Below, in pieces: positions 9,928-43,632 of a stretch of DNA of 64,000 nucleotides (its first letter is position 1; the number at the start of each line of letters is the position of its first letter). A model generated the notes under the pieces. That model saw only the letters and a list, made by a program, of their open reading frames with translations, searched no databases and was not told where the DNA came from. Both the position numbers and the translations under genes were made by a program. Source of the DNA: a virus (lineage: Duplodnaviria; Heunggongvirae; Uroviricota; Caudoviricetes); the IMG/VR virus record IMGVR_UViG_3300042946_001496; one strand, 5' to 3'.

Positions 9928-10188
9928 ATGAAAGAAAAAAAGATATCAGAAATTGCATACTTTCTTTGGCAAGAAGCTGGCTGTCCAGAAAACAAAGATT
10001 TAGATTTCTGGCTGGCTGCTGAAAAGAAATATAAGTTACTGCAAACTTTTGAAAACAATAAAACTGATGACGTTGCTCAATTTAAAAGGATTTACATTCC
10101 TCTTATTAAAAAATTAAAATTATATCCAAAGTTAATTAATTGGCAGTCCAGCTCTTCATATCAGATAGATCCTGCTGTGTTGAAGTGA
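9928..10188 (+). CDS. DUF2934-like protein
   Basis: ISEIAYFLWQEAGCPENKDLDFWLAAE matches the DUF2934 pattern IA..AY.LW...G.PEG.DL.DWL.AE; C-terminus YKLLQTFENNK. Confidence 0.65.
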   Translation: MKEKKISEIAYFLWQEAGCPENKDLDFWLAAEKKYKLLQTFENNKTDDVAQFKRIYIPLIKKLKLYPKLINWQSSSSYQIDPAVLK

Positions 10189-10195
10189 ATAAAAA

Positions 10196-10390
10196 ATGAA
10201 CAATAAAAATTTATTAACATCATTTGAAAAAAAATGTCCACTTTGCAAAAAAGGAAAATTAAAAGAAAACACGATCGAGAGAGTTCGAGTTGACGGATTA
10301 CTAACTGAGAGATATATTATCTTTAATTTTTGCGAAACATGTCCATACGCCTCCTACAAGGAGATTGAAAGTGTCCACAGCGAAAATTGA
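10196..10390 (+). CDS. Zn-ribbon LLDSF-family small protein (outlier copy)
   Basis: MNNKNLLTSFEKKCPLCKKG...CETCPY. Confidence 0.5.
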   Translation: MNNKNLLTSFEKKCPLCKKGKLKENTIERVRVDGLLTERYIIFNFCETCPYASYKEIESVHSEN

Positions 10391-10394
10391 AAAT

Positions 10395-10832
10395 ATGATA
10401 GATAAATTAAAAGAACTTGATAATAATACTTTTTCTTTAATTCAAGAAATAAATAATATTACTAAAGATATAAACCAGCGTGTAGACATTATATGGAGAA
10501 GTTTGTGCGATTTATCTGGTAGAAAAATAAATTGGTATAGTTTTAACAATGACTCTCCTCCATTCGATACAGGGGAAACCACTGGTGGTAGTTTTGATAT
10601 CAGAATACACAAAGACTTTATAAGCTTGGTTGGAGAATTTGACAAAATAGGACATGGTCATTTATATGATAACGGTTTCCCTACAGAATTTTTATATGAG
10701 TCTAACGAAAAATGGAACAAAAAAGTATTAGATGATCTTCAAAGAGTTAAAAAAGAAAAAGAAATACTCAATCAAATACAAAATAAACTATCTGCAGAAG
10801 AATGGGAGTATCTAAAAGATAGATTAAAATGA
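10395..10832 (+). CDS. hypothetical protein
   Basis: Start taken at the first ATG (MIDKLKEL); the ORF-track start is a TTG. Confidence 0.4.
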   Translation: MIDKLKELDNNTFSLIQEINNITKDINQRVDIIWRSLCDLSGRKINWYSFNNDSPPFDTGETTGGSFDIRIHKDFISLVGEFDKIGHGHLYDNGFPTEFLYESNEKWNKKVLDDLQRVKKEKEILNQIQNKLSAEEWEYLKDRLK

Positions 10833-11074
10833 ATCTTAAAGATATTGTAGAAATTTCTTACATTGCACAAACTATATGGGAAAGCTCTGGCTGTCCTTCA
10901 GAAGAAGATTCAACTATCTTAAAACAAGCAACATCTCAATATAAACTATTGAGTACATTTGAAGAAAACAAATCTGTATCTGGATCCGGTTTTGCGTGGT
11001 CGAATTATACTGTAGAAGATTTAGGCAAAATGATTAAAAGATGGTTTCCCTCAAAAAAGAACAAATTACAATAG
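10829..11074 (+). CDS. DUF2934-like protein (divergent)
   Basis: IVEISYIAQTIWESSGCPSEEDS..YKLLSTFEENK. Confidence 0.55.
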   Translation: MNLKDIVEISYIAQTIWESSGCPSEEDSTILKQATSQYKLLSTFEENKSVSGSGFAWSNYTVEDLGKMIKRWFPSKKNKLQ

Positions 11075-11113
11075 AACAGTTTAATGAACCAATGCTTTGC
11101 GAGGTAAAAGAGC

Positions 11114-11293
11114 ATGATGACTTTTTATGAATATTTATCTATAAAAGATAAAATTGAAATATCAGAAATTGCACGGTTTTTTTGGCAAGAAGCAGGCTGT
11201 CCAGAAAACAAAGATTTAGATTTCTGGCTGCTTGCTGAAAAGAAGTATAAATTATTAAAAACATTCAGTAATAGTGCCATATTGAAAATTTAA
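11114..11293 (+). CDS. DUF2934-like protein
   Basis: GAGG RBS; ISEIARFFWQEAGCPENKDLDFWLLAEKKYKLLKTF; about 65 nt nearly identical to the 9928 gene. Confidence 0.55.
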   Translation: MMTFYEYLSIKDKIEISEIARFFWQEAGCPENKDLDFWLLAEKKYKLLKTFSNSAILKI

Positions 11294-11380
11294 ATAATAA
11301 ATAAAATATTAAAAACCGCTGGACTTTCTCCTGTTTTGTGCTATAATATTGGTCTTGTTAAGGAAAAACAGGAGAAAAAA

Positions 11381-11578
11381 ATGCCTAAAAAATATGCTTT
11401 ACTTTCTGTAAAAAATGGAATAGCGACAGTAAAACATAGATGTTGGTTTTGCAAAAAAAAACATAAACTAGAATATCCTTTAGATGATGTTGGAACAAAA
11501 AATAAAGTAAATTCTTTGTGTTTAAAATGTGAAAACGATCTAGATTATTTTAAGAAAACAAATCCAGAAATTTGTTAA
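11381..11578 (+). CDS. small zinc-ribbon protein
   Basis: CAGGAG RBS; CWFCKKK...CLKCEND. Confidence 0.5.
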   Translation: MPKKYALLSVKNGIATVKHRCWFCKKKHKLEYPLDDVGTKNKVNSLCLKCENDLDYFKKTNPEIC

Positions 11579-11582
11579 ATTA

Positions 11583-11789
11583 ATGAATACCGATAATAAA
11601 GATAAATTATTTGATTCTTTTAAAAATGAAAATCTATACAAAAACGAAAATCTATACAAAAGAAAACTAAAAGCTATCTGGAGTGTTGAGACACATCAAG
11701 ATTTGCGTTCATTTTGTAATACCGAAGCAGAAGCTGAATTGTCTAAAATTTTATCAGAATTATTTCAAAGCTTAAAGGAAGAAACTTGA
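11583..11789 (+). CDS. hypothetical protein with KLFDSF N-terminus
   Basis: MNTDNKDKLFDSF; contains an 18-nt tandem duplication (NENLYK x2). Confidence 0.45.
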   Translation: MNTDNKDKLFDSFKNENLYKNENLYKRKLKAIWSVETHQDLRSFCNTEAEAELSKILSELFQSLKEET

Positions 11790-11857
11790 GCATTTGTGCA
11801 ACAACAGGTAAGACTAAGTATAACAGTGATAAAGAAGCTGCTGTTGGTCTTGAAAAT

Positions 11858-11962
11858 ATGAAAAAACATCGCCCTGAGTATGAAGGCGAACCTTATTTTT
11901 GTATGTATTGCAGCAGTTATCATTTTGGAAAAAGACCAGAAAAGAAAAAGAAAGTAAAATGA
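11858..11962 (+). CDS. small Cys-containing basic peptide (possible TTG start at 11786)
   Basis: MKKHRPEYEGEPYFCMYCSSYHFG; its TGA overlaps the downstream ATG. Confidence 0.3.
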   Translation: MKKHRPEYEGEPYFCMYCSSYHFGKRPEKKKKVK

Positions 11963-12285
11963 AAATTAAAAAATATTCGAATGATAAGATAGTTTACTGT
12001 GAGAGGTTTAATGGAGCTGAGATGATCGCGAATGTTTTCGATGACAATAGTGGATATTTTGTTATTAGTAAAAAAAACAAAGAGATATATCTTAGAGAAG
12101 ACGCTACACCAAAACACTGGCTTGCGGATATTGAATTAAAAATAAAGCAATACAACGCAGCAAAAAATTTTTTAGAAAAATTAATTGAAAATCAAAATAA
12201 AGAAAAATTAGCTAAAAAGCCTGCTGAAAAAAAACGTATAAAAGCTATAAAAAAAGTTGATAAGCCGGTTGAGGTAAAAAAGTAA
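11959..12285 (+). CDS. hypothetical Lys-rich protein
   Basis: MKIKKYSNDKIVYC...; Lys-rich C-terminus. Confidence 0.5.
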   Translation: MKIKKYSNDKIVYCERFNGAEMIANVFDDNSGYFVISKKNKEIYLREDATPKHWLADIELKIKQYNAAKNFLEKLIENQNKEKLAKKPAEKKRIKAIKKVDKPVEVKK

Positions 12286-12286
12286 A

Positions 12287-12580
12287 ATGAAAAATTTTCT
12301 TTTATTAATTTGTTGTATGTTAATAGTTGGCTGTGAGCCGCAGGATAGCAAACAAGAAAAAATTGAAGAAAATAATAAAGAAGTTGCGGGTGGCGGACAG
12401 GTTATTGCAACATTTCCAGATGGAACAAAGATTAGATGTTATATTTTAAATGTACCCTATGTTGATAATACTTGGGGAAATCGTAAGGAAACATATCTTG
12501 TTGTTGAACCAAAAGACCCTAATAGTAAAAGCATATTAATCAATGGTCAGCTTTACGCCCCTGCCGAAGAAGATAAATGA
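12287..12580 (+). CDS. lipoprotein
   Basis: Signal peptide with lipobox LIVGC (MKNFLLLICCMLIVGC). Confidence 0.6.
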   Translation: MKNFLLLICCMLIVGCEPQDSKQEKIEENNKEVAGGGQVIATFPDGTKIRCYILNVPYVDNTWGNRKETYLVVEPKDPNSKSILINGQLYAPAEEDK

Positions 12581-12611
12581 TGAAGGGTAAAAATACTTAG
12601 GAGTTTTTTTC

Positions 12612-12797
12612 ATGGAAGAAATTGAATACAAAATAAGCTTTCCTGCTACGAATGAGACAAAGTCTTTTAAAATAAATGACAAGAACAATAACTTCATAGG
12701 AAGTATTTATATTTCTAACGATGGAATATATATTACCTTAAAAGATCATGAAATAACACCGTTTAACAAAACTAGACCTAGGGAGATAAAGTATTGA
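12612..12797 (+). CDS. hypothetical protein
   Basis: AGGAG RBS. Confidence 0.45.
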   Translation: MEEIEYKISFPATNETKSFKINDKNNNFIGSIYISNDGIYITLKDHEITPFNKTRPREIKY

Positions 12798-13039
12798 TTC
12801 TTAAAGTAAATGGAAAAATTGCAGCTAAAACATTAGTTGACATGAACAAAAAAACAATTGTTTGTGTAAATTGCAAATTTTTTGAAAATTCTCCAACAAT
12901 TGAGAGAGAATTTGATTGCTACGGAATGCTAGACGATGTTTTGAAAACGGGCTGCCTAGAAGGCTTGCGGGTTGAAAAAATTGTGCTCGATTGGTTTGAA
13001 AAGGTAAAAAATGACGCTACCTCATCTAATATTGCATGA
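12794..13039 (+). CDS. hypothetical protein (TTG start)
   Basis: GGGAG about 9 nt upstream of the TTG; CVNC..C. Confidence 0.4.
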   Translation: MILKVNGKIAAKTLVDMNKKTIVCVNCKFFENSPTIEREFDCYGMLDDVLKTGCLEGLRVEKIVLDWFEKVKNDATSSNIA

Positions 13040-13137
13040 AACCTTAGTTTTTTGCATAATATATTCTTATTATAATATGTTTATGGAAGATATGAAATGC
13101 ATCAAAGAAAAAAATATGAATGACTAACTATAGTAGT

Positions 13138-13165
13138 AGTTTCTTTCTGGTACGCTGCTACTGTG
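13138..13165 (+). promoter_or_regulatory. conserved GGTACGCTG promoter-like motif (variant tttctttctggtacgctg)
   Basis: One of 13 copies; lies about 40 nt upstream of a GC-rich small gene. Confidence 0.5.
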
Positions 13166-13197
13166 TATCGGAACCATTTTCACAAAGGATATTTGCT

Positions 13198-13368
13198 ATG
13201 GCTAGCGTCGTTGGATACAATAAGTTGGTCGCCGTTATTTTTCAGAAGTATCGTGAGGGCGGCAAGTCGATCAATCTTGCAGAGGCTCGTAAGAAGGCTG
13301 ATAAGATCAGCAAGAATGTTGATTTGAACAACGACGCGGCAATTATCGCTGCTGCCGATATGGTGTGA
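13198..13368 (+). CDS. small GC-rich-codon protein
   Basis: MASVVGYNKLVAVIFQKYREGGKS...; downstream of the conserved motif. Confidence 0.5.
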   Translation: MASVVGYNKLVAVIFQKYREGGKSINLAEARKKADKISKNVDLNNDAAIIAAADMV

Positions 13369-13488
13369 ATTTTAGTCACAAGGGACAGTAGCCGCTATTC
13401 CATATAAGTATGGCGTGGGTGGCTTTGGGGTTGGATCGTAAATGACCCGCTGACCTTATTTTCATTTCATTTAACAAGGAGAATTAAA

Positions 13489-13641
13489 ATGGCTCAGATG
13501 GGTGTTATTGTTCTTGATGGTTCGATTAACGCCGAGGCATGGGCTGCTAAGGTCAAGGCTGAGACTCCCAAGGCTGTTGTCGGTAAGACAGAAACTACGA
13601 TTCAGGGCGTTAATTACATTGTTATCGACAAAGATGGTTGA
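13489..13641 (+). CDS. small GC-rich-codon protein (50 aa)
   Basis: AAGGAG RBS; MAQMGVIVLDGSINAEAWAAKVK...; followed by a terminator. Confidence 0.5.
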   Translation: MAQMGVIVLDGSINAEAWAAKVKAETPKAVVGKTETTIQGVNYIVIDKDG

Positions 13642-13694
13642 TTAAACACACTTGCTACACCGCTCCTTTTGTGATGTGTATAATTGGCAAGTTT

Positions 13695-13728
13695 AAAAGG
13701 GAGGGGTGAAAACCCCTCCCTTTTTTTG
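13695..13728 (+). terminator. rho-independent terminator
   Basis: agggaggggt-gaaa-acccctccct hairpin followed by a T7 run. Confidence 0.8.
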
Positions 13729-13764
13729 TTTTTCATTTATCAATTAAAATAAAAAGAGAATAAA

Positions 13765-14175
13765 ATGGGAATGAAACTTTTCAGTTCAAGCAGCTATGAT
13801 CGTAAAGGAGATTGTCGTTGTGATCCGCCACCGCCATCAACAACAATTAATAACTCGTCAACAATAATTAACAACTATGCAACTCTTCAAAATCCAGATC
13901 CAAACAACTACTCAATTATTGATTCTGCTTATTACTCAAAGTTGACTCATGACGTTCTAGTTGTTAGAATCAAGTATCCAGATTGCACCAATTATGAAGG
14001 AGTAAAGATTCTAGTTTATGAAAACGTGAGTTTGGATGATTTGAAGTCCCAAAAAAGCATTGATCCTCACTTTTCAGAAAACAAGAAATATTACTCCCCT
14101 ATTGCTAGATTTGAACCAACAGAAAAAGGTTGGAAGAACGCAAACAATTTTGCAAAAAGTCTTTTGTCCAATTAA
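13765..14175 (+). CDS. hypothetical protein
   Basis: ORF. Confidence 0.5.
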   Translation: MGMKLFSSSSYDRKGDCRCDPPPPSTTINNSSTIINNYATLQNPDPNNYSIIDSAYYSKLTHDVLVVRIKYPDCTNYEGVKILVYENVSLDDLKSQKSIDPHFSENKKYYSPIARFEPTEKGWKNANNFAKSLLSN

Positions 14176-14194
14176 TCTTTAAAGAAAGAATAAA

Positions 14195-14689
14195 ATGTTT
14201 ATCAGTCATATTATCGCTTGTGGGTATGGCAAGTTTCCGGTTGAAATGCTAGCCAAAGAAAATTGCTATCCAAAAGAAACTGACGATGCAATAATCATTG
14301 CAGAAACCTTTGTTAAAAATGATCATTGGAAAGTAAAACTTTACAAGATTGGAGACGGGTGGCAAACAAACGAATGGAATAAGCGAGGGGCATATCTAGT
14401 TTTTGATATTCCTGCTTCTAAACCTGATCCAGAAGATTTTGTTGGTATTCCAAAAGACAAAAGCGATGATGGTTGTAGTCCCAAGAAACCTTATTGGGTT
14501 GGTAATAACGATCCAGAAGCATTTTATAAGTGGCTGGATGAGGTTCAGCCTAAAGCTAAAGAACTTAAAGATAAGTTTTACAAAGAAGTACTTGGTAAAA
14601 CAGAAGAATTGTTTAATAGCAGTGAAAATTTTCTTAAAGAAGTTTTTGAAAATTTTGAAAAAAATATCAGAAAGTTTAAAGAAAAATGA
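14195..14689 (+). CDS. hypothetical protein
   Basis: ORF; the overlapping alternate-frame ORF is rejected. Confidence 0.5.
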   Translation: MFISHIIACGYGKFPVEMLAKENCYPKETDDAIIIAETFVKNDHWKVKLYKIGDGWQTNEWNKRGAYLVFDIPASKPDPEDFVGIPKDKSDDGCSPKKPYWVGNNDPEAFYKWLDEVQPKAKELKDKFYKEVLGKTEELFNSSENFLKEVFENFEKNIRKFKEK

Positions 14690-14928
14690 ATTGGTTTAAA
14701 AAGCCAGATCCTTTAACAAGCGAACCTGTAGTGGTTACTACTGTCAAGGGTGATAGTGTTCTTTATAGAATGGTCACAGAGGCAGATATTAGACAAGAAG
14801 CATATTTTCTATGGGAGAAAAATGGCAAAGTCGGTTCTAGTGAACGGTATTGGTATGAGGCTGAACAGAAAATAAGAAAAATTTTGCTAAATCAGAAAAA
14901 TGAACAAACCACTAAACAGTTTTCTTAA
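14686..14928 (+). CDS. DUF2934-like protein
   Basis: IRQEAYFLWEKNGKVGSSERYWYEAEQKIR; ends ..KNEQTTKQFS. Confidence 0.5.
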   Translation: MNWFKKPDPLTSEPVVVTTVKGDSVLYRMVTEADIRQEAYFLWEKNGKVGSSERYWYEAEQKIRKILLNQKNEQTTKQFS

Positions 14929-15214
14929 TCTTAAAAAGATTGATATTGTTTTAGAAATACACAACAAAGAAGATTGTTTTTTAGTAATTTGCATTAATGA
15001 TGAACTAATTTGCAAATTAAAAAAACCAGAGTTATTTGGAAGCACTCCAAACGATAGGGATCTTAGTGCCTACGAGTACTTAGTTGAAAACAACTATCTT
15101 CCTTATAGAGATCCTCTTTATCCTCTTTATCTTGAAGGTTATTGTAGAGATCATGATGTCAAATTTAGTAGTATTTCAAAAACTTACATCAAAGGATTTA
15201 AACACCAAAGATGA
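14900..15214 (+). CDS. hypothetical protein
   Basis: ORF. Confidence 0.45.
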   Translation: MNKPLNSFLNLKKIDIVLEIHNKEDCFLVICINDELICKLKKPELFGSTPNDRDLSAYEYLVENNYLPYRDPLYPLYLEGYCRDHDVKFSSISKTYIKGFKHQR

Positions 15215-15420: not shown

Positions 15421-16322
15421 ACAGATATGGAATTTGCTGCATAATTCTTTCTTTAGCAGATAATAATCCTCCAAAGAAATTTCAAAGAATTACGTATAAG
15501 AAGTTTAGTCAAACTCCAAGAAGTGAGGCAATATCTGTTCTTAGCAAGCGAATCTTAAACAATATTGATGTTACATTTCATGCAATAAAATATTGCTATG
15601 AAAGAAACTATTGCTACAGACTAAGCAGCGATCTTTTTCCGCTGATTACTTATGATAAAGCAGAATTATCTCTTGAAGATTTGCCTGATTACAACACTCT
15701 TCTTGATTTGTATGAGCAAATAAAAGCATACATACAAAAAAACAATGTTAGAATTTCTTTGCACCCAAGCGAATACAATTCACTTGCCAGTGAGAATGAA
15801 GTTGTTGTAAACAAGACTATTCGTGAACTAAATTTTTATTCTAAGTTCATGGATCAAATCGGCTGTCCTGCTGACTACAATTCGCCTGTTAATTTTCATA
15901 TTAACAACAACCAAGGAACTTGCGAAGAAATAGTAGACCGTCTTGCTAGAAATTTAGAAAAACTTGATGAAAATTGCTATAGGCGGGTGGTGTTTGAAAA
16001 TGACGATAAGCCTAAATGTTGGAGCGTCAAGAAGCTAAACGAGTATTATCACAAAGTTACAAAAAAACCAATTACATTCGACTTCTTGCACCATAAATGC
16101 CACCCGGATAACCTAACAGAAGAAGAAGCATTTAATATTTGTTATGAAACTTGGGGAAACTATAGACCTATTTTTCACTATAGTGAGAGTAGAAGTGAAA
16201 AACAAATAAGAGCACACGCAGATTATCCTGAAAATAAACCAAATACTTATGGAAAATCGTTTGATGTTGATATAGAACTTAAAATGAAAGAGAAAGCAGT
16301 AGAAAGGATTCTACAGTTATGA
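15417..16322 (+). CDS. uvsE: UV DNA damage endonuclease (UvdE/UvsE family)
   Basis: Blockwise match to Bacillus UvsE as recalled from memory: YRLSSDLFPL, RISLHPSEYNSLAS, VVFENDDK, ITFDFLHHK, SEKQIRAHADY, FDVDIELKMKEKAVERILQL. Confidence 0.85.
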   Translation: MNRYGICCIILSLADNNPPKKFQRITYKKFSQTPRSEAISVLSKRILNNIDVTFHAIKYCYERNYCYRLSSDLFPLITYDKAELSLEDLPDYNTLLDLYEQIKAYIQKNNVRISLHPSEYNSLASENEVVVNKTIRELNFYSKFMDQIGCPADYNSPVNFHINNNQGTCEEIVDRLARNLEKLDENCYRRVVFENDDKPKCWSVKKLNEYYHKVTKKPITFDFLHHKCHPDNLTEEEAFNICYETWGNYRPIFHYSESRSEKQIRAHADYPENKPNTYGKSFDVDIELKMKEKAVERILQL

Positions 16323-16717
16323 TTAAAGTTAGATTTCACCTTGGAAGAGGAGAAAATTATAAGCATTGGCAAATTGTAGAATTTCCAAATGTTAAATACT
16401 TTGATCCAAATGAAAACAACTTAATTCTTACTAATTGTCTTTTAAAAAATAATAAAAATGTAGCAGAAAAAATATACAAAGGAGAAAACAAAACAGTTTG
16501 TGCTTGGATACTTTGTGAAAAAGTTGACATTGTTTTAAACAGTAACTTCAATAAAAAGAAATATAAAAAAATATCTTACAATCCTAAAAAGTTTCCATAT
16601 TGGATTAATCTAAGCGAGAACGAACTTCTACAGACCTTTGATGACAATAGATCTATAGATAACTATAAATTTTCTGAAATAAGAAGTATTGGTAAAACTT
16701 TATACGCAATTGAATAA
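16319..16717 (+). CDS. hypothetical protein
   Basis: ORF. Confidence 0.5.
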   Translation: MIKVRFHLGRGENYKHWQIVEFPNVKYFDPNENNLILTNCLLKNNKNVAEKIYKGENKTVCAWILCEKVDIVLNSNFNKKKYKKISYNPKKFPYWINLSENELLQTFDDNRSIDNYKFSEIRSIGKTLYAIE

Positions 16718-16728
16718 TTTACCGCCGG

Positions 16729-20066: not shown

Positions 20067-20264
20067 ATGTATTTTGATATTTTTGCTTTGATTGCTTTCC
20101 TTAATCTTGGCTATATTACTTGGCTTTTTAAAAACAAAATTGATAATCTTGAACATCAAGTAAATAAACTCGATAAAGTTGTTCGCAAACTCAATGGTGA
20201 GAAAATTGAATCCAAAAATGGAGTTATGATCATAACTCAAGAAAATTTCATGGAGCCTTCATGA
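20067..20264 (+). CDS. small membrane protein
   Basis: Internal ATG with aaagga RBS; one TM helix. Confidence 0.4.
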   Translation: MYFDIFALIAFLNLGYITWLFKNKIDNLEHQVNKLDKVVRKLNGEKIESKNGVMIITQENFMEPS

Positions 20265-20695
20265 ATAACGAGGAAGATGCGTCCAAGATTGCTGAAATAA
20301 AAAGAACAGCAAAGCTTCTTGATACTTTTGATAAAAGAACCAATAAGTGGGTTGTTAGTATTAAAGGAAAAGTAGAATCACAAGACTTTGAAGTTAGCGT
20401 TCTTCGTGATGACAATAAACATGGAAAATTATCTTATGGTTGGTTTGGTGATAACAAACTATTGATCATTCAGCACGGTTGCGGTGCTTATGGAATTAGA
20501 ATTACCTCGCCTCTGATAAGAAAGATTGTATTGGATAAATCTGTTAAATTTGCACAAGAATTAGCAGATGAATTGAATTTTTCTGAACTTCACGGTAGTA
20601 TTGCAAATTCATGCAACAGTTTTTGTGGTGATCTTGAATGTAATATGAATCAAGAAATAAACCCAAACATCTGCAAAAGAATACGATCCAGATGA
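20261..20695 (+). CDS. hypothetical protein (paralog of the 20724 gene)
   Basis: VSVLRDDNKHGKLSYGWFGDNKLLII...VKFAQELADELN; contains AKLLDTFDKR. Confidence 0.5.
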   Translation: MNNEEDASKIAEIKRTAKLLDTFDKRTNKWVVSIKGKVESQDFEVSVLRDDNKHGKLSYGWFGDNKLLIIQHGCGAYGIRITSPLIRKIVLDKSVKFAQELADELNFSELHGSIANSCNSFCGDLECNMNQEINPNICKRIRSR

Positions 20696-20723: not shown

Positions 20724-20996
20724 ATGAAGGCAAAATGGGTTGTCGATGTTAAAGGTAGCGTACCACCAAACCAAGGGGTTAAAGATTCGCCCATCGACAT
20801 GGAGATTAGCGTTCTTCGTGATGATTTTGAACACGGAAAAAGATCTTGGGGTTGGTCTTGTGAAGACAAACTAATAATTAGTTGTGAGGGTGGACCTTGT
20901 AATATTATGGTAAAACAGATAATTTTGGACAAACTTGTAAAAGTAGCACAAGAAGTTGCAGACGAACTAAATCATCCACTCGCAACATTTCAATAA
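20724..20996 (+). CDS. hypothetical protein (paralog of the 20261 gene)
   Basis: ISVLRDDFEHGKRSWGWSCEDKLIIS...VKVAQEVADELN. Confidence 0.5.
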   Translation: MKAKWVVDVKGSVPPNQGVKDSPIDMEISVLRDDFEHGKRSWGWSCEDKLIISCEGGPCNIMVKQIILDKLVKVAQEVADELNHPLATFQ

Positions 20997-22477: not shown

Positions 22478-22759
22478 ATGAATGGATTGAATGCTTCAAC
22501 AAATGTAAAAAGCGAGCTACTAGAGACTTTTCTGCCTGAGAGTATACGTTTTGCATTTTATTCAAAACTCGCATCTGAAAGATATGGTTATGCCGTTTAT
22601 ACGAACAAAACAACCTTAGAAAACATAAAAGTTACTGGTTTGTATCAGGACATAAACGCCAAAAATTATCTTTGGGAAGATAAAGAGCTTGTAGGAGAAA
22701 TTGATTTAAACTTTTGGTATTGTTCATCTGCTCTCGGTCTAGCTCTTCGCCTCGAATGA
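22478..22759 (+). CDS. hypothetical protein with ELLETF motif
   Basis: MNGLNASTNVKSELLETFLPES; the alternative overlapping frame (22375-22539) is not excluded. Confidence 0.35.
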   Translation: MNGLNASTNVKSELLETFLPESIRFAFYSKLASERYGYAVYTNKTTLENIKVTGLYQDINAKNYLWEDKELVGEIDLNFWYCSSALGLALRLE

Positions 22760-26664: not shown

Positions 26665-27021
26665 ATGGCAAAATCATTTGAGCATTTAGTTAAAAAGACA
26701 GCAACCAAAAAGTCTAAAGCTACTGCTAAAAAAAGGACAAAAGAGCTTCTTGATACTTTTGACAAAAGAATCAAGACCTGCTCTTACATTGACAGCAGCG
26801 AATTGTTTAAAGATTGCGAAGAGGCATGGAATCTTTTTGTTGATTTTAGTAAGGATTGTAGTTGGGGAGATAACGATCTTAGTTTAATTGCTGCCAGCCT
26901 TATTGGTGATACTTTGGATAATAGTGATCCATCCACTAAAGAGGAAGAAAAGCAAATCAAAATTATCTTCAAAAGAATTGATGAACTTGGTTTAGATTTT
27001 TTTGTTAATTTGGAAAACTAA
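26665..27021 (+). CDS. hypothetical protein with ELLDTFDKR motif
   Basis: KKRTKELLDTFDKRIKTC. Confidence 0.5.
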   Translation: MAKSFEHLVKKTATKKSKATAKKRTKELLDTFDKRIKTCSYIDSSELFKDCEEAWNLFVDFSKDCSWGDNDLSLIAASLIGDTLDNSDPSTKEEEKQIKIIFKRIDELGLDFFVNLEN

Positions 27022-29824: not shown

Positions 29825-30217
29825 TCACCAAGGAACATCTTTGATATCACCACCTGCTAATGCGGGTGTTTCATTCTCAGAAACTTCCTCTTCGCTATCT
29901 TCTCTTCTAACAGGATTTAACCTTAACTCTAATTCATTAACACCAACAAAATGTTTTTGACGCTTCTTGCCAGTGTCTTTATCTTCCCATTCATTTTCCA
30001 ACAATCTTCCGGTGATAAAGACTTTTTTGCCACGCTTTAGGTAATCTACTGCACGGGTAGGATTCCACCATTCGCAGTCTATGTAGGTGGTTCGTTTTTC
30101 TCCGTTACTGACGCACAGGCGGAACTTTGCCAGTACGCTGTCTCCTATTGGCTTTGTGACGCAATCCCCGGCTAGATTTCCCTCTAGGCATAGGTTGTTA
30201 ATGTCTCTTGACTTCAT
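29825..30217 (-). CDS. ssb: single-stranded DNA-binding protein
   Basis: OB-fold blocks YLKRGKKVFITGRLLENEWEDKDTGKKRQKHFVGVN match E. coli SSB [34 protein letters not shown]; acidic C-terminal tail DIKDVPW resembles DDDIPF; AAGGAG RBS. Confidence 0.85.
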   Translation of the reverse strand: MKSRDINNLCLEGNLAGDCVTKPIGDSVLAKFRLCVSNGEKRTTYIDCEWWNPTRAVDYLKRGKKVFITGRLLENEWEDKDTGKKRQKHFVGVNELELRLNPVRREDSEEEVSENETPALAGGDIKDVPW

Positions 30218-39235: not shown

Positions 39236-41341
39236 ATGTTAAACTTTAAACAATATATTAACGAAATTAGACAAAAAGATCTTGAAAATATAGATTTAAA
39301 CAGGAACTTATTGTTTAACAATATATTTGGAGATAAGTTAAGAGTATTAATTCCTTTAGGAGAAGATCTAGAAACCAGGGAGTTTATGGATGAGCTAGAA
39401 GACCTGGGTTATATAGTAAACTACAGTGATTTGATTCATAAAAAAATAATATACAAAAAAATAAAAACAAAAGAAGGAACAAAAGAAAGAGCTGAAAAAG
39501 TAGGAAAAGTTCTACAAAATGAAATTAAAAAATTATCATCACAGTCGCAATTAGACGTTGTGAGCAGAGATAATGTACCCCCAGAATCGTGGCAAGAATA
39601 TATTAAAAAATACACCAAAATGTTAGATTGGTGGCAAAAAAATAGTGAAAATTTAAAAAATAGTGACAGTGGCTCAAGCGTAATAATAAGCAGAAGTCCT
39701 ATCGATCTTGTTAGAATGAGTGATCATGACAATATATCAAGTTGCCATAGTCCTGATGGCAGTTATTTTAAATGTGCCAAACAAGAAGCTAAAACTGGTG
39801 GTGCTGTTGCTTATGTCGTTAAGAACAGTGATTTAAAAGACGTCGATATACAAAAGCCAGAATTGTTTGAAGACGAAGAAAGAAAAATAGAAGGAATAGT
39901 TCCTCTTGAAAGACTTAGACTAAGAAGATTCTCTAAAGGAGAGATAGATTTATTGGTTCCGGAAATAAAAACTTATGGAACATCAAATATCGGATTTTAC
40001 GGCAAAGTTAAACAATGGGCTAAAGATTCTCAAAAAGATACTTTAGAAAAGTTAGATCCAGAAAAAGATTATGAAAATTTTGATTTAAAAGGAGGAAGCT
40101 ATCAGGATAGTCCAGCAGAAAAAATTTGGAGTAATTTTTTTGACAATAGCGTTAAAGGACATAAAACAAGTTTAGACGATGAAGATGAGAATGAAGGTGA
40201 AAATACTGCGGATGATATTTATAATGCGGCTGAAGCTCAAATAAGACAACATCAAAGAGTTTGGAAGCACTTTAGTGTTCATCACGACATATATGATAAT
40301 GAAAACAATGTTTTAGACTATACCGCTTATTGTAGCATTTCTATTCCTAGAAAACTATTTACATTAGAATTTTCAGATGAATGGAATGATAAAAATTATA
40401 GAGAAATAAAAAACGTAATAGAAAGCAATATTGATATTTATAGTATTTCCGATATAAGTCTTAATGACGAAGATGATAAAAACTATCACTTTAATATATC
40501 AGTTCAGAATGAAGATCCCTATCATCAAAACAATCAACTAGTCAGGTTGGAGCACTTCTTGGATTACATTGATGACATAGACGGAAACTTTGACACACAC
40601 GTTTCAAAAGTTTATAGAGGGTTAATCAACAAAGGTTATATTAAATCTGTTGGTGGTAAACTAACGTTTAAAAACTTTACAATAGAAGAAGATGATTATG
40701 AAGGAACAACAATAAAAAGTGTAGAAGAAAAAATAGCATACTTAAAAGACTTTCCTGTAATTGAAAATATTGGTGGAAATTATAGAGACAAGCAAATGTT
40801 TACAAGTAAACAAAAAATATACATAAATGATTTTAGAAACAAACTTATAAACTCCGCTGAATTTAAAAGTCTTAAAATATTTCCTTTTAATTTAAATCAA
40901 AATGAAATAAATTTTTATTTAATAGAAGGAATAACCAAGATTGATAGAACAAAAGAGCCAGCATTTTCAGGAAGTTATAGCGATCCTGATAATTTTGATC
41001 CTATTGCTCCTAAAATAACAAAGCTTACTGGATGGGTTTATTTTGAATTAGAAAAAACAATTGGATTTGATATAACCTCAAACACAAAAACAATACAGTT
41101 CTTAAAAAATATTGATAATAATTGGGACTTTTATATTAAAAAATTAAATAAATTTTTTGAATCATTTTTAAAAATGAAATATAGTCCAATTGATCAATGG
41201 GACAACTCCATGGATAAACCTCGATCCCCGAAGCCAGAAGACCATATTAATTTTAACAAAAAAATCTTCCCTCAAAAACCAGTAGTCAAAAAATCAGAAA
41301 AACAACTAACATTCAAAGATTTCGTCAATAAAAAGCGATAA
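39236..41341 (+). CDS. large hypothetical protein (about 700 aa) with MLNFKQYI leader and a weak PcfJ-like core
   Basis: NISSCHSPDGSYFKC..GGAVAYVV; start chosen at the leader Met (the ORF track starts 27 nt upstream). Confidence 0.5.
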   Translation: MLNFKQYINEIRQKDLENIDLNRNLLFNNIFGDKLRVLIPLGEDLETREFMDELEDLGYIVNYSDLIHKKIIYKKIKTKEGTKERAEKVGKVLQNEIKKLSSQSQLDVVSRDNVPPESWQEYIKKYTKMLDWWQKNSENLKNSDSGSSVIISRSPIDLVRMSDHDNISSCHSPDGSYFKCAKQEAKTGGAVAYVVKNSDLKDVDIQKPELFEDEERKIEGIVPLERLRLRRFSKGEIDLLVPEIKTYGTSNIGFYGKVKQWAKDSQKDTLEKLDPEKDYENFDLKGGSYQDSPAEKIWSNFFDNSVKGHKTSLDDEDENEGENTADDIYNAAEAQIRQHQRVWKHFSVHHDIYDNENNVLDYTAYCSISIPRKLFTLEFSDEWNDKNYREIKNVIESNIDIYSISDISLNDEDDKNYHFNISVQNEDPYHQNNQLVRLEHFLDYIDDIDGNFDTHVSKVYRGLINKGYIKSVGGKLTFKNFTIEEDDYEGTTIKSVEEKIAYLKDFPVIENIGGNYRDKQMFTSKQKIYINDFRNKLINSAEFKSLKIFPFNLNQNEINFYLIEGITKIDRTKEPAFSGSYSDPDNFDPIAPKITKLTGWVYFELEKTIGFDITSNTKTIQFLKNIDNNWDFYIKKLNKFFESFLKMKYSPIDQWDNSMDKPRSPKPEDHINFNKKIFPQKPVVKKSEKQLTFKDFVNKKR

Positions 41342-41349
41342 ATTTAAAG

Positions 41350-41381
41350 TTTCTTTCTGGTACGCTGGGATGTTGACGGTC
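41350..41381 (+). promoter_or_regulatory. conserved GGTACGCTGGG promoter-like motif
   Basis: tttctttctggtacgctgggatgttgacggtc. Confidence 0.5.
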
Positions 41382-41471
41382 AAAGTCTGTCAAAGGACTT
41401 GATTTCTGTTTGGCTTGTTGTTATACTCAACCTGTGTCATGTTTGTGTGGCACTTATTTAAGGAGAATTGT

Positions 41472-41765
41472 ATGAAGAGTGTAATGTTTGCATGGATGGT
41501 TCTGATTGCTGGTGTTTGTTATGGTGGTCAGGAGGCTAGCGTTGTTGTTAGCCCAACTCCTGCTCCTGCTGTAGTTGTTGCTCCTGCTCCTGTTGTTGTG
41601 ACCGCAACCCCTGTTGTTGTTGGTTGTAATGGCGGTTGTTGCAGTGGTAAGTGCGACCCTGTTTACACCACAAAGACTGATGAGCGATCCAGTTGCCGTC
41701 GTACAGTTTTTGGCAAGGTAGTTCGCCGTGATGTTAGGCGAACTGTTGTTGCCCCTGTTCGCTGA
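41472..41765 (+). CDS. secreted small Pro/Val/Ala- and Cys-rich protein
   Basis: AAGGAG RBS; signal peptide MKSVMFAWMVLIAGVCYG; PAPAVVVAPAPVVV; CNGGCCSGKC; GC-rich codons; terminator follows. Confidence 0.55.
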   Translation: MKSVMFAWMVLIAGVCYGGQEASVVVSPTPAPAVVVAPAPVVVTATPVVVGCNGGCCSGKCDPVYTTKTDERSSCRRTVFGKVVRRDVRRTVVAPVR

Positions 41766-41785
41766 AAAACTAACTAATTAGTTTA

Positions 41786-41832
41786 GCCAAGCCCCCTTAA
41801 TCTTTATTGGTTAAGGGGGCTTGGTTTTTTAT
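41786..41832 (+). terminator. rho-independent terminator
   Basis: gccaagccccctta..taagggggcttgg hairpin followed by a T6 run. Confidence 0.8.
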
Positions 41833-42039
41833 TCAGTCTTTTTTCACGCTATGAAGTTTTAAATTACTCCAAGCTACTACTAAGCTATAATTCTCTACCA
41901 GCACGTTATCTACAAGTGCTATTTGAGCAATAACGTTTATCTTTGAATCTTTGTGGCTTATAACTTCCACAATGGTTCCTTCTGGTACATAGAAATCTTC
42001 GCCTACAGCAGATGCTTTCAATGTGCATAAAAGTTTCAT
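41833..42039 (-). CDS. hypothetical small protein
   Basis: Minus-strand ORF between plus-strand cassettes. Confidence 0.35.
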   Translation of the reverse strand: MKLLCTLKASAVGEDFYVPEGTIVEVISHKDSKINVIAQIALVDNVLVENYSLVVAWSNLKLHSVKKD

Positions 42040-42096
42040 ACATTTAAATTAGTTAAAATTTTAACTTTCCAAAACAAACTTCCTAACTAATACCCG

Positions 42097-42124
42097 TAGT
42101 GGTGGTACGCTGGGAGGGTGTCCG
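42097..42124 (+). promoter_or_regulatory. conserved GGTGGTACGCTGGGAGGGTGTC promoter-like motif
   Basis: Best match to the motif consensus. Confidence 0.5.
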
Positions 42125-42163
42125 ACAAAGATACTCTGTAATTCTGGAAAAGGTGGTTTTCTT

Positions 42164-42379
42164 ATGGCTACGGTAATTACCGGCGACAATATCCAACGAT
42201 TTCGACTTCAAGTAATCAAGCAAGCTCTTTACCTTGAAACTAGGGGTATGCGATCTTCAAGGGTTAGTGCCGCTGCTACTGCTAGGGATATTCTGGTTAA
42301 GGTTGGCATCAAGGCGGCTCATAACAAGGCTGCTCTTCTTGTTCAGTTTACCGATTACATCAACAATCTGGAGGGTTAA
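42164..42379 (+). CDS. small GC-rich-codon protein
   Basis: MATVITGDNIQRFRLQVIKQALYLETRG.. Confidence 0.5.
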   Translation: MATVITGDNIQRFRLQVIKQALYLETRGMRSSRVSAAATARDILVKVGIKAAHNKAALLVQFTDYINNLEG

Positions 42380-42382
42380 ATT

Positions 42383-42766
42383 ATGTGGAACTTTAGTGAA
42401 ATTACTCGTAGTGAAGATCGTGCTAAGTTGAGCCTCACTATGAAGTTTAGCCACAGCAATCCTACCGCTGTAGCTGGTGGTGTTTGGACAATTAAGTATA
42501 AGCTCCGTAACCGTCAGGGCAAGTTGACTAATTTGTTCAGCATTAGTGCTCCCGATAGGCTTAAGCCTCGTCGTGAGCATCGTCTTGATGATGTGATGGA
42601 TACTGTTAAGTTCGCTGCATTTCACGATCGCAATAACACTACTGGTCTGCTTGGGTTTAAGACCTTTAAGGTCCGGCTTCGTGAAATTGTTGGTGTTGAT
42701 CTTGCTAATCAAGTTGCTACTATGTTTGCTGAACGTATTAAGAGTGAAATTACCGTCAAAAGTTGA
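42383..42766 (+). CDS. hypothetical protein (GC-rich codons)
   Basis: ORF. Confidence 0.5.
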   Translation: MWNFSEITRSEDRAKLSLTMKFSHSNPTAVAGGVWTIKYKLRNRQGKLTNLFSISAPDRLKPRREHRLDDVMDTVKFAAFHDRNNTTGLLGFKTFKVRLREIVGVDLANQVATMFAERIKSEITVKS

Positions 42767-42777
42767 AAGGAATTACT

Positions 42778-43068
42778 ATGGACGACATTACTCGAAGAGA
42801 AGCGTTGCTTAGGCTTAAGAGAACTCTTACCAAGCAACAAATTGAAGATTTGCAAATTGTAATTAATAGTAAGAAAGCCGCAGGAGATTATACTGGAGTA
42901 GATGATGACGGCGGAAGTTTTTGGGAAGAAAGTATAAGTTCAACTCTTGCGTCTCTTGCTGCTGAACTTAATTTTGATAATGATGCTTTTGATGTTCAAA
43001 ATGAAGATGAAGATGATGATGAAGATGATGAATCTTGGGGATCAGAAGCCTGCTATGAAGGAGAATAA
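42778..43068 (+). CDS. acidic hypothetical protein
   Basis: AAGGA RBS; ATG chosen over the ORF-track TTG; poly-Asp/Glu C-terminus. Confidence 0.5.
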   Translation: MDDITRREALLRLKRTLTKQQIEDLQIVINSKKAAGDYTGVDDDGGSFWEESISSTLASLAAELNFDNDAFDVQNEDEDDDEDDESWGSEACYEGE

Positions 43069-43070
43069 AT

Positions 43071-43331
43071 ATGCACACTCTTCGATTTAGTGCTTATTGT
43101 GGTATGGGTTGGAGTATTAAGTCTGGAACTCTTGATGAATGTAGAGTTGCTGCTGCTAAAATCCTGCGTAAGCGTAAGCGTGAAGGACACAATATTGTTA
43201 AATTGAAAGAAAACAAATGGGAGTGTCAGGAACCTGAAAATTGTATGATGGTTCCAGATACAGCAGGGGTTCTTGTTTTGGAAAACAACAATAAGGATGA
43301 TGATTATGAAGAAGAGTATAACGAAGAATAA
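43071..43331 (+). CDS. hypothetical protein
   Basis: ORF. Confidence 0.5.
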   Translation: MHTLRFSAYCGMGWSIKSGTLDECRVAAAKILRKRKREGHNIVKLKENKWECQEPENCMMVPDTAGVLVLENNNKDDDYEEEYNEE

Positions 43332-43632
43332 TCTTCTTGATACTTTCGTAGAAGTTGAAAGTATTTTTATTATTGGGCGAAGATGGTTTGAAAAAACCAA
43401 TGGAAATACTTATCATACATCCGAGATTTATGTGAATAATAATTTTGTTCACAAAATCAGCATGACCTATGGTTATGGACAACAATACTTGTGGACTGCT
43501 CTTAATTGGCTTAAGAACAATAAGTATTTAAGTTCAATCTCTGAAAAAGATAACCCTTCAATTTTTTGTCGAGAAAACAACATTAAGTTAAATCACACTG
43601 TTGCTGATGTTGGTAGAAAAAAAGATTTGTAA
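43306..43632 (+). CDS. hypothetical protein with NNLLDTF motif
   Basis: MKKSITKNNLLDTFVEVE. Confidence 0.4.
   Translation: MKKSITKNNLLDTFVEVESIFIIGRRWFEKTNGNTYHTSEIYVNNNFVHKISMTYGYGQQYLWTALNWLKNNKYLSSISEKDNPSIFCRENNIKLNHTVADVGRKKDL

What the first reader, a model, noticed from the sequence alone, without database searches (positions are those of the whole stretch)
9928..43632. Recurrent short peptide motif (K)LL(D/Q/E)(S/T)F(D/E) in many unrelated proteins
- The LLDSF motif occurs in the Zn-ribbon family.
- It also occurs at the C-termini of the DUF2934-like proteins (YKLLQTFENNK, YKLLSTFEENK, YKLLKTF).
- Internally it appears in 20261 (AKLLDTFDKR), 26665 (KELLDTFDKR), 43306 (NNLLDTFVE) and 22478 (SELLETF), and at the N-terminus of 11583 (KLFDSF).

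A short linear motif shared across folds suggests a common docking partner. It loosely resembles clamp-binding QL[SD]LF-type motifs and could equally be a degron or packaging tag.
Basis: inference. Interest (0 to 1): 0.6.

Follow-up and report, generated by a model that had tools for sequence, protein, structure and literature searches.

The report
Shared leader peptide on phage mini-proteins
About a quarter of the genes in this uncultured freshwater phage fragment, mostly tiny zinc-binding proteins in long tandem arrays but also about ten unrelated proteins, carry the same short peptide (K/N-rich, then L-L-D-S/T-F), which looks like a portable address or docking tag whose partner is unknown.

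Summary
There are 41 credible (K/N)(L)L[DE][ST]F sites on the + strand.

Codons vary synonymously, so selection acts on the peptide.

Most sites lie outside 9928-43632, in two tandem arrays of small CxxC...CxxC genes (172-3566 and 56943-62290). In those genes the motif sits 3-12 residues from the start Met.

The motif is the hallmark N-terminus of an unnamed, metagenome-only zinc-ribbon family: 136 clusters at 50% identity, with LDSF as invariant as the Cys ligands. One relative has 22 copies in 4.6 kb.

In this phage lineage the same leader also sits on about ten non-zinc proteins:
- Distant homologues of the 43306 protein lack it.
- The tandem paralogue 20724 lacks it.
- 20261 and 26665 share nothing but it.

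AlphaFold places the leader in a low-confidence tail.

My best reading is a portable docking or targeting leader, spread by recombination. The partner is unknown.

The host beta-clamp motif is not matched. Resemblance to T4/RB69 clamp-binding tails and to the T4 capsid-targeting sequence is only loose.

A second N-terminal leader, closer to the T4 capsid-targeting sequence, marks the larger proteins.

The parts
172..3566 (+). Array A: 11 tandem family-A genes (starts 172, 368, 1427, 1649, 1869, 2059, 2225, 2756, 3021, 3194, 3393), 57-92 aa each. They begin M-x-x-LDSF-[DN]-x-x-K-x-K-C-x-x-C-x-x-Y and have a second CxxC. One B-like gene (2421-2633, NLLNSF) sits among them.
   Evidence: Invariant positions are S6, F7, K11, C14, C17, Y20, C37, C40. 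AlphaFold gives a zinc-ribbon/treble-clef-like core with the leader in a coil at pLDDT 58.
56943..62290 (+). Array B: 13 leader-bearing small Cys-rich genes (starts 56943, 57169, 57392, 57980, 58956, 59203, 59522, 60459, 61000, 61413, 61623, 61853, 62081). They begin M-(N/K-rich, 2-6 aa)-LL[DES][STR]F followed by a CxxC-type knuckle. Beyond that they are barely alignable.
   Evidence: A terminator-like hairpin (56669-56709) and a TTGACT-17-TAAAAT promoter-like site (56729-56757) lie just upstream.
10196..10390 (+). Isolated leader-bearing zinc-ribbon gene (MNNKNLLTSFEKKCPLC); motif at 10211-10225.
9928..10188 (+). DUF2934 domain (residues 3-33) followed directly by KLLQTFENNK (motif at 10036-10050) and an unrelated 45-aa tail.
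   Evidence: Pfam DUF2934, E=3.9e-12.
10829..11074 (+). Degenerate DUF2934-like paralogue followed by KLLSTFEENK (motif at 10946-10960).
   Evidence: (clusters with 9928).
11114..11293 (+). DUF2934 protein ending in KLLKTFSNSAILKI (motif at 11252-11266). Its N-terminus, MMTFYEYL, resembles the second leader.
   Evidence: Pfam DUF2934, E=6.5e-8.
11583..11789 (+). Leader (MNTDNKDKLFDSF, motif at 11607-11621), then NENLYK repeats, then a 32-residue fragment of a T4-type major capsid protein.
   Evidence: Pfam Gp23, E=1e-5. Residues 27-58 are 53% identical to T4 gp23 residues 264-295.
14900..15214 (+). Non-zinc protein beginning MNKPLNSFLNLKK (a degenerate leader; motif at 14909-14923).
   Evidence: Similar non-zinc carriers occur in relatives (L005:5047, L009:1823).
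16319..16717 (+). L5 gp82-like domain (residues 32-102) followed immediately by ELLQTFDDNR (motif at 16625-16639), 30 residues from the C-terminus.
   Evidence: Pfam Phage_L5_gp82, E=1.2e-6.
20261..20695 (+). A 28-residue N-terminal extension containing RTAKLLDTFDKR (motif at 20315-20329), placed in front of a domain shared with the next gene.
   Evidence: 48% identity to 20724-20996 from residue 29 of this protein against residue 4 of the paralogue, which lacks the extension.
20724..20996 (+). Tandem paralogue of 20261 without the leader; it serves as an internal control.
22478..22759 (+). Protein with MNGLNASTNVKSELLETF (motif at 22517-22531).
26665..27021 (+). Protein sharing only the 12-residue segment RTKELLDTFDKR with 20261 (motif at 26746-26760).
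   Evidence: BLASTP aligns only residues 24-35 (10 of 12 identical). The DNA codon string CTTCTTGATACTTTTGA is identical.
43306..43632 (+). Member of the phrog_6246 'GRRWFEKTNGNTYH' family with an added N-terminal MKKSITKNNLLDTFVE (motif at 43333-43347).
   Evidence: PHROG E=6e-18, alignment starting at residue 16. Close homologues keep the leader and distant ones start at the domain. AlphaFold gives residues 1-12 pLDDT below 50 and the domain about 90.
8689..8835 (+). 48-aa protein with KVKLLNTFLNE in its C-terminal half (motif at 8779-8793). This is a weaker, possibly coincidental instance.
   Evidence: The segment is conserved in L005 (RLLDTFLNEKISTEDTGPR).
52145..52264 (+). 39-aa leader-bearing mini-ORF (MKNKNKLFKSFVNKTCKKCKES).
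53030..53101 (+). Truncated leader-bearing remnant (MKNLLDSFVDLKCPWCPSVK, then a stop). Similar remnants lie at 57749-57850 and 60914-61003.
   Evidence: The sequences are visible in 'intergenic' stretches.

Best explanation
**What it is.** The element is a portable leader of about 10 residues. Its consensus is a K/N-rich spacer, then L-L-[D/E]-[S/T]-F, then an acidic or hydrophobic residue, then x-x-K.

**Where it comes from.** It originated as the invariant N-terminus of a large, uncharacterised family of small phage zinc-ribbon proteins. That family undergoes birth-and-death amplification in tandem arrays. In this phage lineage, DNA recombination has placed the leader in front of, or directly behind, about ten unrelated domains.

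**What I infer it does.** It is a flexible docking or targeting peptide that brings a large, fast-diversifying set of small accessory proteins to one common partner. The constant leader supplies the address, and the variable body supplies the specificity or activity.

**Shown here**
- The peptide is under selection at the protein level.
- It lies outside the folded domains.
- It has been gained on unrelated proteins and is absent from their relatives.
- It spread at the DNA level.

**Inferred, not shown**
- That a single partner exists, and what it is.

**My ranking of partner classes (subjective)**
- A phage-encoded receptor used for routing, such as the prohead core (as with the T4 capsid-targeting sequence) or the syntenic AAA+ ATPase/PcfJ pair: about 0.25.
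- A replication or transcription hub such as a phage sliding clamp: about 0.15.
- A protease or unfoldase, with the leader acting as degron or adaptor: about 0.15.
For: - **Enrichment.** 16 sites against 0.15 expected. With the motif masked, the carriers fall into 14 clusters against 0.12 expected.
- **Peptide-level selection.** Codons vary synonymously, including AGY/TCN/ACN at the Ser/Thr position.
- **N-terminal position.** The Phe lies 6-14 residues from the nearest Met in about 78% of 76 unique carriers.
- **Conservation against a divergent background.** In array B the leader is the only well-conserved segment. In family A, LDSF is as invariant as the Cys ligands across 120 of 133 representatives from 50% identity clusters.
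- **The leader is an add-on.**
  - Homologues of the 43306 protein at 56-92% identity keep it (NLLDTFVE, ELLDAFVE, TKLDSFIN). Those at 41-52% identity start directly at the domain.
  - The tandem paralogue 20724 lacks the leader-bearing extension of 20261.
  - 20261 and 26665 share only the 12-residue leader segment.
- **Spread by DNA recombination.** The codon string CTTCTTGATACTTT is identical in 20261, 26665 and 43306.
- **Flexible tail.** AlphaFold gives pLDDT 58 for residues 1-10 of family A and below 50 for residues 1-12 of the 43306 protein, whose domain scores about 90.
- **Same architecture in relatives.** L005, L007, L009 and L011 have leader-led zinc-ribbon arrays; all but L007 also have leader-bearing non-zinc proteins, and L005 has a DUF2934-leader fusion.
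Against: - No partner has been identified, and nothing here shows binding.
- In family A the motif sits at a fixed distance (6 residues) from the first Cys, inside a conserved 17-residue block. There it could be an integral part of the domain rather than a free tag.
- The leader on non-zinc carriers decays with divergence: ETLVEFEK at 56% identity.
- One carrier is only a fragment of a capsid gene. This fits chimeras arising by recombination without selection for a tag function.
- A few sites are internal or C-terminal (16319, 8689, and the DUF2934 fusions), which does not fit a strictly N-terminal signal.
- No conserved protease site follows the motif.
Confidence: 0.5

Rival explanations
1. 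The motif is a family signature that hitch-hikes. LDSF would be an intrinsic structural or ligand-binding part of the zinc-ribbon N-terminal module (LDSF-x3-K-x-K-C-x-x-C-x-x-Y). Its appearance on other proteins would be a by-product of rampant recombination in the arrays: new or foreign ORFs captured behind the ready-made start (RBS plus first codons) of a family gene, or fused to one. No common partner would be involved.
For: - The motif has fixed spacing and near-invariance within a 17-residue block in 120 of 133 family representatives.
- Three non-zinc carriers have identical codon strings.
- One carrier is a leader fused to a fragment of a capsid gene.
- Truncated leader remnants lie in the arrays.
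- The leader decays in the more distant 43306 orthologue.
- Tandem duplications include the RBS in L025.
Against: - AlphaFold does not pack the leader onto the zinc core (pLDDT 58, coil).
- In array B the leader is conserved while the spacing to the first Cys and the rest of the protein vary.
- The leader persists on the 43306 family across at least four diverged lineages, and on DUF2934 fusions in both the window and L005.
- Internal copies cannot be serving as translation starts.
Confidence: 0.27
2. The motif binds a sliding clamp. The leader would dock carriers onto a clamp, more plausibly a phage T4-type clamp than the host beta clamp.
For: - T4-family clamp ligands are short, interchangeable, hydrophobic and acidic peptides (PMC2988020).
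- The RB69 polymerase ends in KKASLFDMFDF. T4 gp43 ends in SLDFLFG and T4 gp55 in SLDFLYEAND.
- These resemble the window's KKLLDSFDE and KLFDSFKN through the shared pattern L-hydrophobic-D-x-F-D.
- The phage has some T4-like traits: a gp23-like fragment and leaders resembling the T4 capsid-targeting sequence.
Against: - The bacterial consensus QL[SD]LF fails at two defining positions: no Gln appears among the commonest residues at position 1, and Ser/Thr stands where a hydrophobic residue is required.
- T4-type motifs are C-terminal, whereas these are N-terminal.
- About 40 clamp ligands in 64 kb has no precedent.
- No clamp, clamp loader or polymerase is present in the window. The only replication protein there is a bacterial-type SSB whose tail is DIKDVPW.
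- The T4 late promoter TATAAATA is not enriched.
Confidence: 0.12
3. The motif is the leader of a ribosomally synthesised, post-translationally modified peptide. The arrays would encode Cys-rich precursors, with a constant leader recognised by one maturase and a hypervariable core.
For: Tandem arrays of small Cys-rich ORFs have a conserved N-terminal leader and variable remainder.
Against: - No maturase-type domain (radical SAM, LanM/LanB, YcaO) appeared in the Pfam scans of the window proteins.
- The bodies are 50-100 residues long, with four invariant Cys at zinc-ribbon spacing and a predicted fold.
- The leader also sits on Cys-free folded domains.
Confidence: 0.03
4. The recurrence is chance or a composition effect in an AT-rich genome.
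For: The K/N-rich spacer after the start codon is what A-rich 5' coding regions tend to give.
Against: 16 sites observed against 0.15 expected, with a maximum of 3 in 2000 shuffles. There is a strong strand and frame bias, and the motif is conserved in relatives.
Confidence: 0.01

Closest known systems
T4 capsid-targeting sequence (CTS) on the polymorphic internal proteins of T-even phages
   Same: - A leader of about 10 residues at the extreme N-terminus is the only thing shared by a diverse, fast-evolving set of small phage accessory proteins (PMC3012670).
- In family A the register is the same as in T4: a hydrophobic residue at position 4 and Phe at position 7 (MSKLDSF against IPIII MKTYQEF and IPI MKTFKEF).
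   Different: - The sequence is otherwise unrelated.
- No (L/I)-x-E protease site follows the motif.
- In array B the distance from the Met varies.
- Some copies are internal or C-terminal.
- There are about 40 carriers rather than 3-10.
- Packaging was not tested.
- A second leader in the same window resembles the CTS much more closely.
Sliding-clamp-binding tails of the T4/RB69 family (gp43, gp55, gp33) and the bacterial beta-clamp motif QL[SD]LF
   Same: It is a short hydrophobic and acidic peptide in a flexible terminus. The RB69 tail LFDMFD resembles LLDSFD and LFDSFK.
   Different: - These motifs are N-terminal, not C-terminal.
- Ser/Thr stands where the clamp motifs have a hydrophobic residue.
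- No Gln appears among the commonest residues at the first position.
- No clamp gene is in view.
Leader peptides of multi-copy RiPP precursors (for example prochlorosins)
   Same: One constant leader precedes many hypervariable Cys-rich bodies encoded in tandem.
   Different: The bodies are folded zinc-binding mini-domains. No maturase is present. The leader also sits on ordinary folded domains.
Small phage zinc-ribbon accessory proteins (for example Lar-like restriction alleviation proteins)
   Same: They are similar in size and carry CxxC...CxxC. One member gives a weak PHROG hit to the Lar-like family (E=0.002).
   Different: No significant match to any Pfam or PHROG family. No known family has the LDSF-x3-K-x-K-C block or such arrays.

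Membership tests
Bacterial beta-clamp-binding motif (QL[SD]LF) | Gln at position 1 of the pentapeptide | tested here: not met
   In the logo of 73 sites, the position equivalent to Gln is L (43), K (9), N (9), S (3), T (2), R (1) among the six commonest; Gln is not among them.
Bacterial beta-clamp-binding motif (QL[SD]LF) | Hydrophobic residue (L/M) at position 4, immediately before the terminal Phe | tested here: not met
   The residue before Phe is S (58), T (13) or R (2) in 73 sites.
Bacterial beta-clamp-binding motif (QL[SD]LF) | Binds the hydrophobic cleft of the host beta clamp | not testable with these tools
   The host is unknown and no multimer modelling was available.
T4-family sliding-clamp-binding tail | Hydrophobic and acidic peptide resembling SLDFL[FY] or SLFDMFDF | tested here: inconclusive
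   LLDSFD and LFDSFK share L-hydrophobic-D-x-F-D with the RB69 tail LFDMFD. The match to T4 LDFLF is poorer.
T4-family sliding-clamp-binding tail | Located at the extreme C-terminus of the ligand | tested here: not met
   About 78% of sites lie within 14 residues of the N-terminal Met. None of the C-termini listed carries the core motif, apart from the near-terminal copy in 11114.
T4-family sliding-clamp-binding tail | A gp45-type clamp is encoded by the phage | not tested
   No clamp turned up in the Pfam/PHROG scans of the window proteins of 75 aa or more; this was not a complete search. The rest of the genome (a 141.5 kb contig is on record) could not be fetched.
T4-type capsid-targeting sequence | Leader within the first ~10 residues of otherwise unrelated small proteins | tested here: met
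   Exceptions are the internal copies in the DUF2934 fusions, 16319, 20261 and 26665.
T4-type capsid-targeting sequence | Sequence M-K-T-[YF]-x-E-F followed by an (L/I)-x-E prohead-protease site | tested here: not met
   Only the hydrophobic-4/Phe-7 register of family A matches. An acidic residue two positions after the Phe occurs in only 12 of 37 window sites.
T4-type capsid-targeting sequence | Carriers are packaged into the head and processed | not testable with these tools
   This needs virion proteomics.
RiPP precursor leader | A cognate maturase is encoded nearby | tested here: not met
   Pfam scans of window proteins found no such domain.
Zinc-ribbon / treble-clef mini-domain (fold class only) | Two CxxC knuckles, invariant across the family, and a compatible predicted fold | tested here: met
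   C14, C17, C37 and C40 are invariant. The AlphaFold core scores pLDDT 78-87. The nearest folds are FYVE, RING and zinc-ribbon, but with E above 0.4.

The most novel reading that the evidence does not exclude
The phage carries a leader-addressed library. Dozens of hypervariable zinc-ribbon binders, plus a few other domains, would all be plugged through the LLDSF leader into one machine: a phage AAA+ unfoldase or protease adaptor, or the prohead core for injection. That would make a programmable arsenal of anti-defence or host-takeover factors, diversified by tandem birth-and-death. It would run in parallel with a second class of larger injected effectors that carry a leader resembling the T4 capsid-targeting sequence.
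Probability: 0.15. Interest if true: 0.85.

Novelty: new variant of a known kind. Interest (0 to 1): 0.62.

Why it matters
If the leader is an address tag, it gives a simple sequence handle. One could use it to list, in uncultured phages, the whole set of proteins sent to a single destination (virion, hub or protease), and to load foreign cargo there, as the T4 capsid-targeting sequence has been used.

The finding also defines a large, unnamed, hyper-amplified family of phage zinc-ribbon mini-proteins: up to 22 genes in 4.6 kb, and about a quarter of the genes in this window. Constant-head, variable-body families in arrays that turn over quickly are typical of arms-race genes.

The finding also shows exon-shuffling-like transfer of a 10-residue module between phage genes.

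Tried and rejected
**Searches that found nothing**
- Megablast of 12 kb against isolated phages gave no match.
- tblastn of a family member and of two large proteins against isolated phages gave no match.
- IMG/VR scans with the family-A profile and with the PcfJ-like protein gave nothing confirmed.
- Full-text searches for LLDSF, LDSFD and LLDTF found no relevant paper.
- Rfam gave no hit in the window.

**Attempts that failed for technical reasons**
- I tried to reach the rest of the genome, to look for a polymerase tail, clamp and head genes. The 141.5 kb contig is on record but was never returned, and locus proteins cannot be used to walk along it.
The 45-aa version found only 8 proteins.

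**Ideas tested and rejected or left unsupported**
- A DNA- or RNA-level signal is rejected, because codons vary synonymously.
- T4 late promoters are not enriched.
- Sigma-70-like sites are not enriched.
- Foldseek on the family-A model returned only generic zinc folds.
- I considered cleavage by a Prp-type or T4 gp21-type protease. No conserved site follows the motif.

Full report
**Context**

The window is 32% GC. Almost all genes are on the + strand, there is no tRNA and no Rfam family.

Exact copies of its proteins occur only in freshwater metagenome assemblies; the longest contig on record is 141.5 kb. The few recognisable genes point to a large tailed phage:
- an AAA ATPase whose best matches are in jumbo phages;
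- a PcfJ-like protein and UvdE;
- a bacterial-type SSB, Cpn10, a ferritin-like protein and an ADP-ribosyltransferase of the 'polyvalent protein' type;
- a terminase in a relative.

No isolated phage is similar at the DNA level.

Yes.

- The broader pattern hits 27 times in + strand frames and 6 times in - strand frames.
- With the motif masked, the 16 carriers fall into 14 BLAST clusters, against 0.12 expected.
- Codons vary synonymously at every motif position: six Leu codons, GAT/GAC, AGY/TCN/ACN and TTT/TTC. The conserved object is therefore the peptide, not a DNA or RNA signal.

Most of the motif lies outside 9928-43632. Of 41 credible + strand sites, 12 are in a tandem array at 172-3566 and 17 lie between 52145 and 62290 (13 intact genes at 56943-62290, plus mini-ORFs and remnants).

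The arrays encode 50-110 aa proteins with CxxC...CxxC.
- Array A is a clear paralogue family beginning M-x-x-LDSF-[DN]-x-x-K-x-K-C-x-x-C-x-x-Y.
- Array B shares little beyond M-(K/N-rich)-LLDSF and the first knuckle.

Across the window and its relatives, the Phe lies 6-14 residues from the nearest Met in about 78% of 76 unique carriers. So this is mainly an N-terminal leader.

Carriers are shorter, more basic and richer in Cys than the other + strand proteins: median 77 against 118 aa, pI 8.4 against 6.1.

**The zinc-ribbon family**

It matches no Pfam or PHROG family and no isolated phage.

The word-indexed search found only 18 relatives. The exhaustive profile search found 136 representatives from 50% identity clusters. 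All ten that I looked up are metagenomic and unnamed.

In 120 of 133 small representatives, the block L-D-S-F-[DN]-x-x-K-x-K-C-x-x-C-x-x-Y is present with fixed spacing. Counts out of 120 are L 118, D 104, S 101, F 120, K 119 and Y 112. LDSF is thus as invariant as the metal ligands.

Related contigs carry the same arrays (L005, L007, L009, L011). A more distant one has 22 copies in 4.6 kb (L025).

AlphaFold on a 19-sequence alignment gives a treble-clef/zinc-ribbon-like core (pLDDT 78-87) but leaves residues 1-10 as low-confidence coil (pLDDT 58). Foldseek returns only generic FYVE, RING and zinc-ribbon folds, none significant.

**Is the motif really on unrelated proteins?**

Partly, and informatively so. 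Ten or so carriers are not zinc ribbons:
- three DUF2934 proteins, with the motif directly after the domain;
- an L5 gp82-like protein, with the motif directly after the domain;
- a phrog_6246 protein;
- 20261, 26665, 22478, 14900 and 11583.

Three tests show that the leader is an add-on.

1. For the 43306 protein, homologues at 56-92% identity carry NLLDTFVE, ELLDAFVE, TKLDSFIN or ETLVEFEK. Homologues at 41-52% identity begin directly at the domain. AlphaFold gives the domain pLDDT about 90 and residues 1-12 below 50.
2. 20261 is 48% identical to its neighbour 20724 from residue 29 of the former against residue 4 of the latter. Only 20261 has the 28-residue extension with RTAKLLDTFDKR.
3. 20261 and 26665 share only that 12-residue segment.

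The leader is shared by descent, not by convergence.
- Ser is AGY in 20 of 24 cases, against 45% genome-wide.
- 20261, 26665 and 43306 use the identical string CTTCTTGATACTTT.
- Truncated leader-bearing remnants (53030, 57749, 60914) and a leader fused to a 32-residue piece of a T4-type capsid protein show a recombinogenic, birth-and-death setting.

**How it most likely works**

The shown facts are:
- selection at the peptide level;
- a position in flexible tails next to, but outside, different folds;
- gain on some proteins and absence from their relatives;
- extreme conservation against a hypervariable background.

These are the marks of a short linear docking or targeting motif. I therefore favour a common-partner leader, with confidence about 0.5.

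The partner is inferred only. The best documented precedent is the T4 capsid-targeting sequence, which is the only feature shared by the diverse T-even internal proteins (PMC3012670). Family A even shares its register, with a hydrophobic residue at position 4 and Phe at position 7. However, no (L/I)-x-E site follows the motif, and some copies are internal.

A phage T4-type clamp is not excluded. The RB69 polymerase ends in KKASLFDMFDF and T4 gp43 in SLDFLFG, and such tails are interchangeable docking peptides (PMC2988020). But those are C-terminal, and no clamp gene is in view.

A degron or adaptor role is equally open. A classic AAA ATPase and a PcfJ-like gene lie next to array A here and in L005, which makes them candidates worth testing.

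**Main rival**

The main rival (confidence about 0.27) is that LDSF is an integral part of the zinc module, as the fixed spacing suggests. On this view its presence elsewhere is a by-product of genes being captured behind, or fused to, family 5' ends.

**Novelty**

I found no described family or motif. The principle of a constant leader on diverse phage accessory proteins is known from T4. I therefore rate this a new variant of a known kind, of moderate to high interest.

Noticed in passing
window 30873, 34665(-), 35105(-), 35715, 37410, 39174(-), 39236, 53151, 54595, 58284, ~62348 (gene starts): There is a second N-terminal leader: M-(x)-(x)-F-[KNHY]-[QKE]-[WYF]-[LI], usually followed by [LI]-x-E. 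It sits on about 11 larger proteins that are mutually unrelated. Examples are MKTFNKWLENL, MKFKQWLEDF, MLNFKQYINEI, MNFHKLYQLINEN, MNFYEFYNLVAEN and MEFKNWLIEH. It closely resembles the T4 capsid-targeting sequence (IPIII MKTYQEFIAE|A, IPI MKTFKEFTS), including the prohead-protease site. One carrier has an ADP-ribosyltransferase domain, as the packaged T4 Alt protein does. These may be injected effectors.
   Followed up: partly
window 16735, 21020, 23055, 41359, 42104, 43684, 50254, 54794, 55925, 62065 (+ strand): The element (c)tggtGGTACGCTGGGagggtgtc occurs 10 times, all on the + strand and mostly in intergenic DNA just upstream of genes. Chance expectation is 0.58. It is a candidate phage-specific promoter or regulatory site. 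It matches no Rfam family.
   Followed up: partly
window 11583-11789: This 68-aa ORF combines the LFDSF leader, NENLYK repeats and a 32-residue segment that is 53% identical to T4 gp23 residues 264-295, a conserved stretch of the major capsid protein. It may be a capsid-gene fragment captured behind a leader, or a capsid-assembly decoy.
   Followed up: partly
L025:1-4620: A more distant relative packs 22 tandem copies of the LD[STA]F zinc-ribbon gene into 4.6 kb. Starts and stops overlap, and the upstream GGAG-containing stretch is conserved (it reads as LKIGAKM in frame). This is an extreme tandem amplification.
   Followed up: partly
window 53030-53101, 57749-57850, 60914-61003, 61213-61271: Truncated leader-bearing remnants and zinc-knuckle fragments lie in the 'intergenic' DNA of array B. 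They indicate birth-and-death turnover.
   Followed up: no
window 57100-57185, 58150-58210, 59480-59538, 60640-60698, 60880-60927: A subset of array-B proteins, and the leaderless paralogue 60736, share a C-terminal helix motif L-[KN]-[KE]-L-K-E-Y-[YF].
   Followed up: no
window 29825-30217 (-): A bacterial-type SSB has an acidic tail ending in DIKDVPW, a variant of the canonical DDDIPF hub-binding tip. A Cpn10-like gene (27933-32) lies nearby.
   Followed up: no
L005:1-970 (-), L007:6944-8122 (-): IS605 OrfB/TnpB (Cas12f-like) genes are inserted next to the zinc-ribbon arrays in two related phage contigs.
   Followed up: no
window 62348-64000: A 565-aa ORF begins at about 62348 and runs off the end of the window, so the ORF listing does not show it. 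In L011 it is followed by three more leader-bearing zinc-ribbon genes, so array B continues beyond the window.
   Followed up: partly
window 14686-14928 and L007:17692-17916: DUF2934 proteins without the leader sit next to UvdE in both phages. Only some DUF2934 paralogues carry the LLxTF extension. The DUF2934-leader fusions might hint that DUF2934 and the leader interact (a Rosetta-stone argument); this is untested.
   Followed up: no
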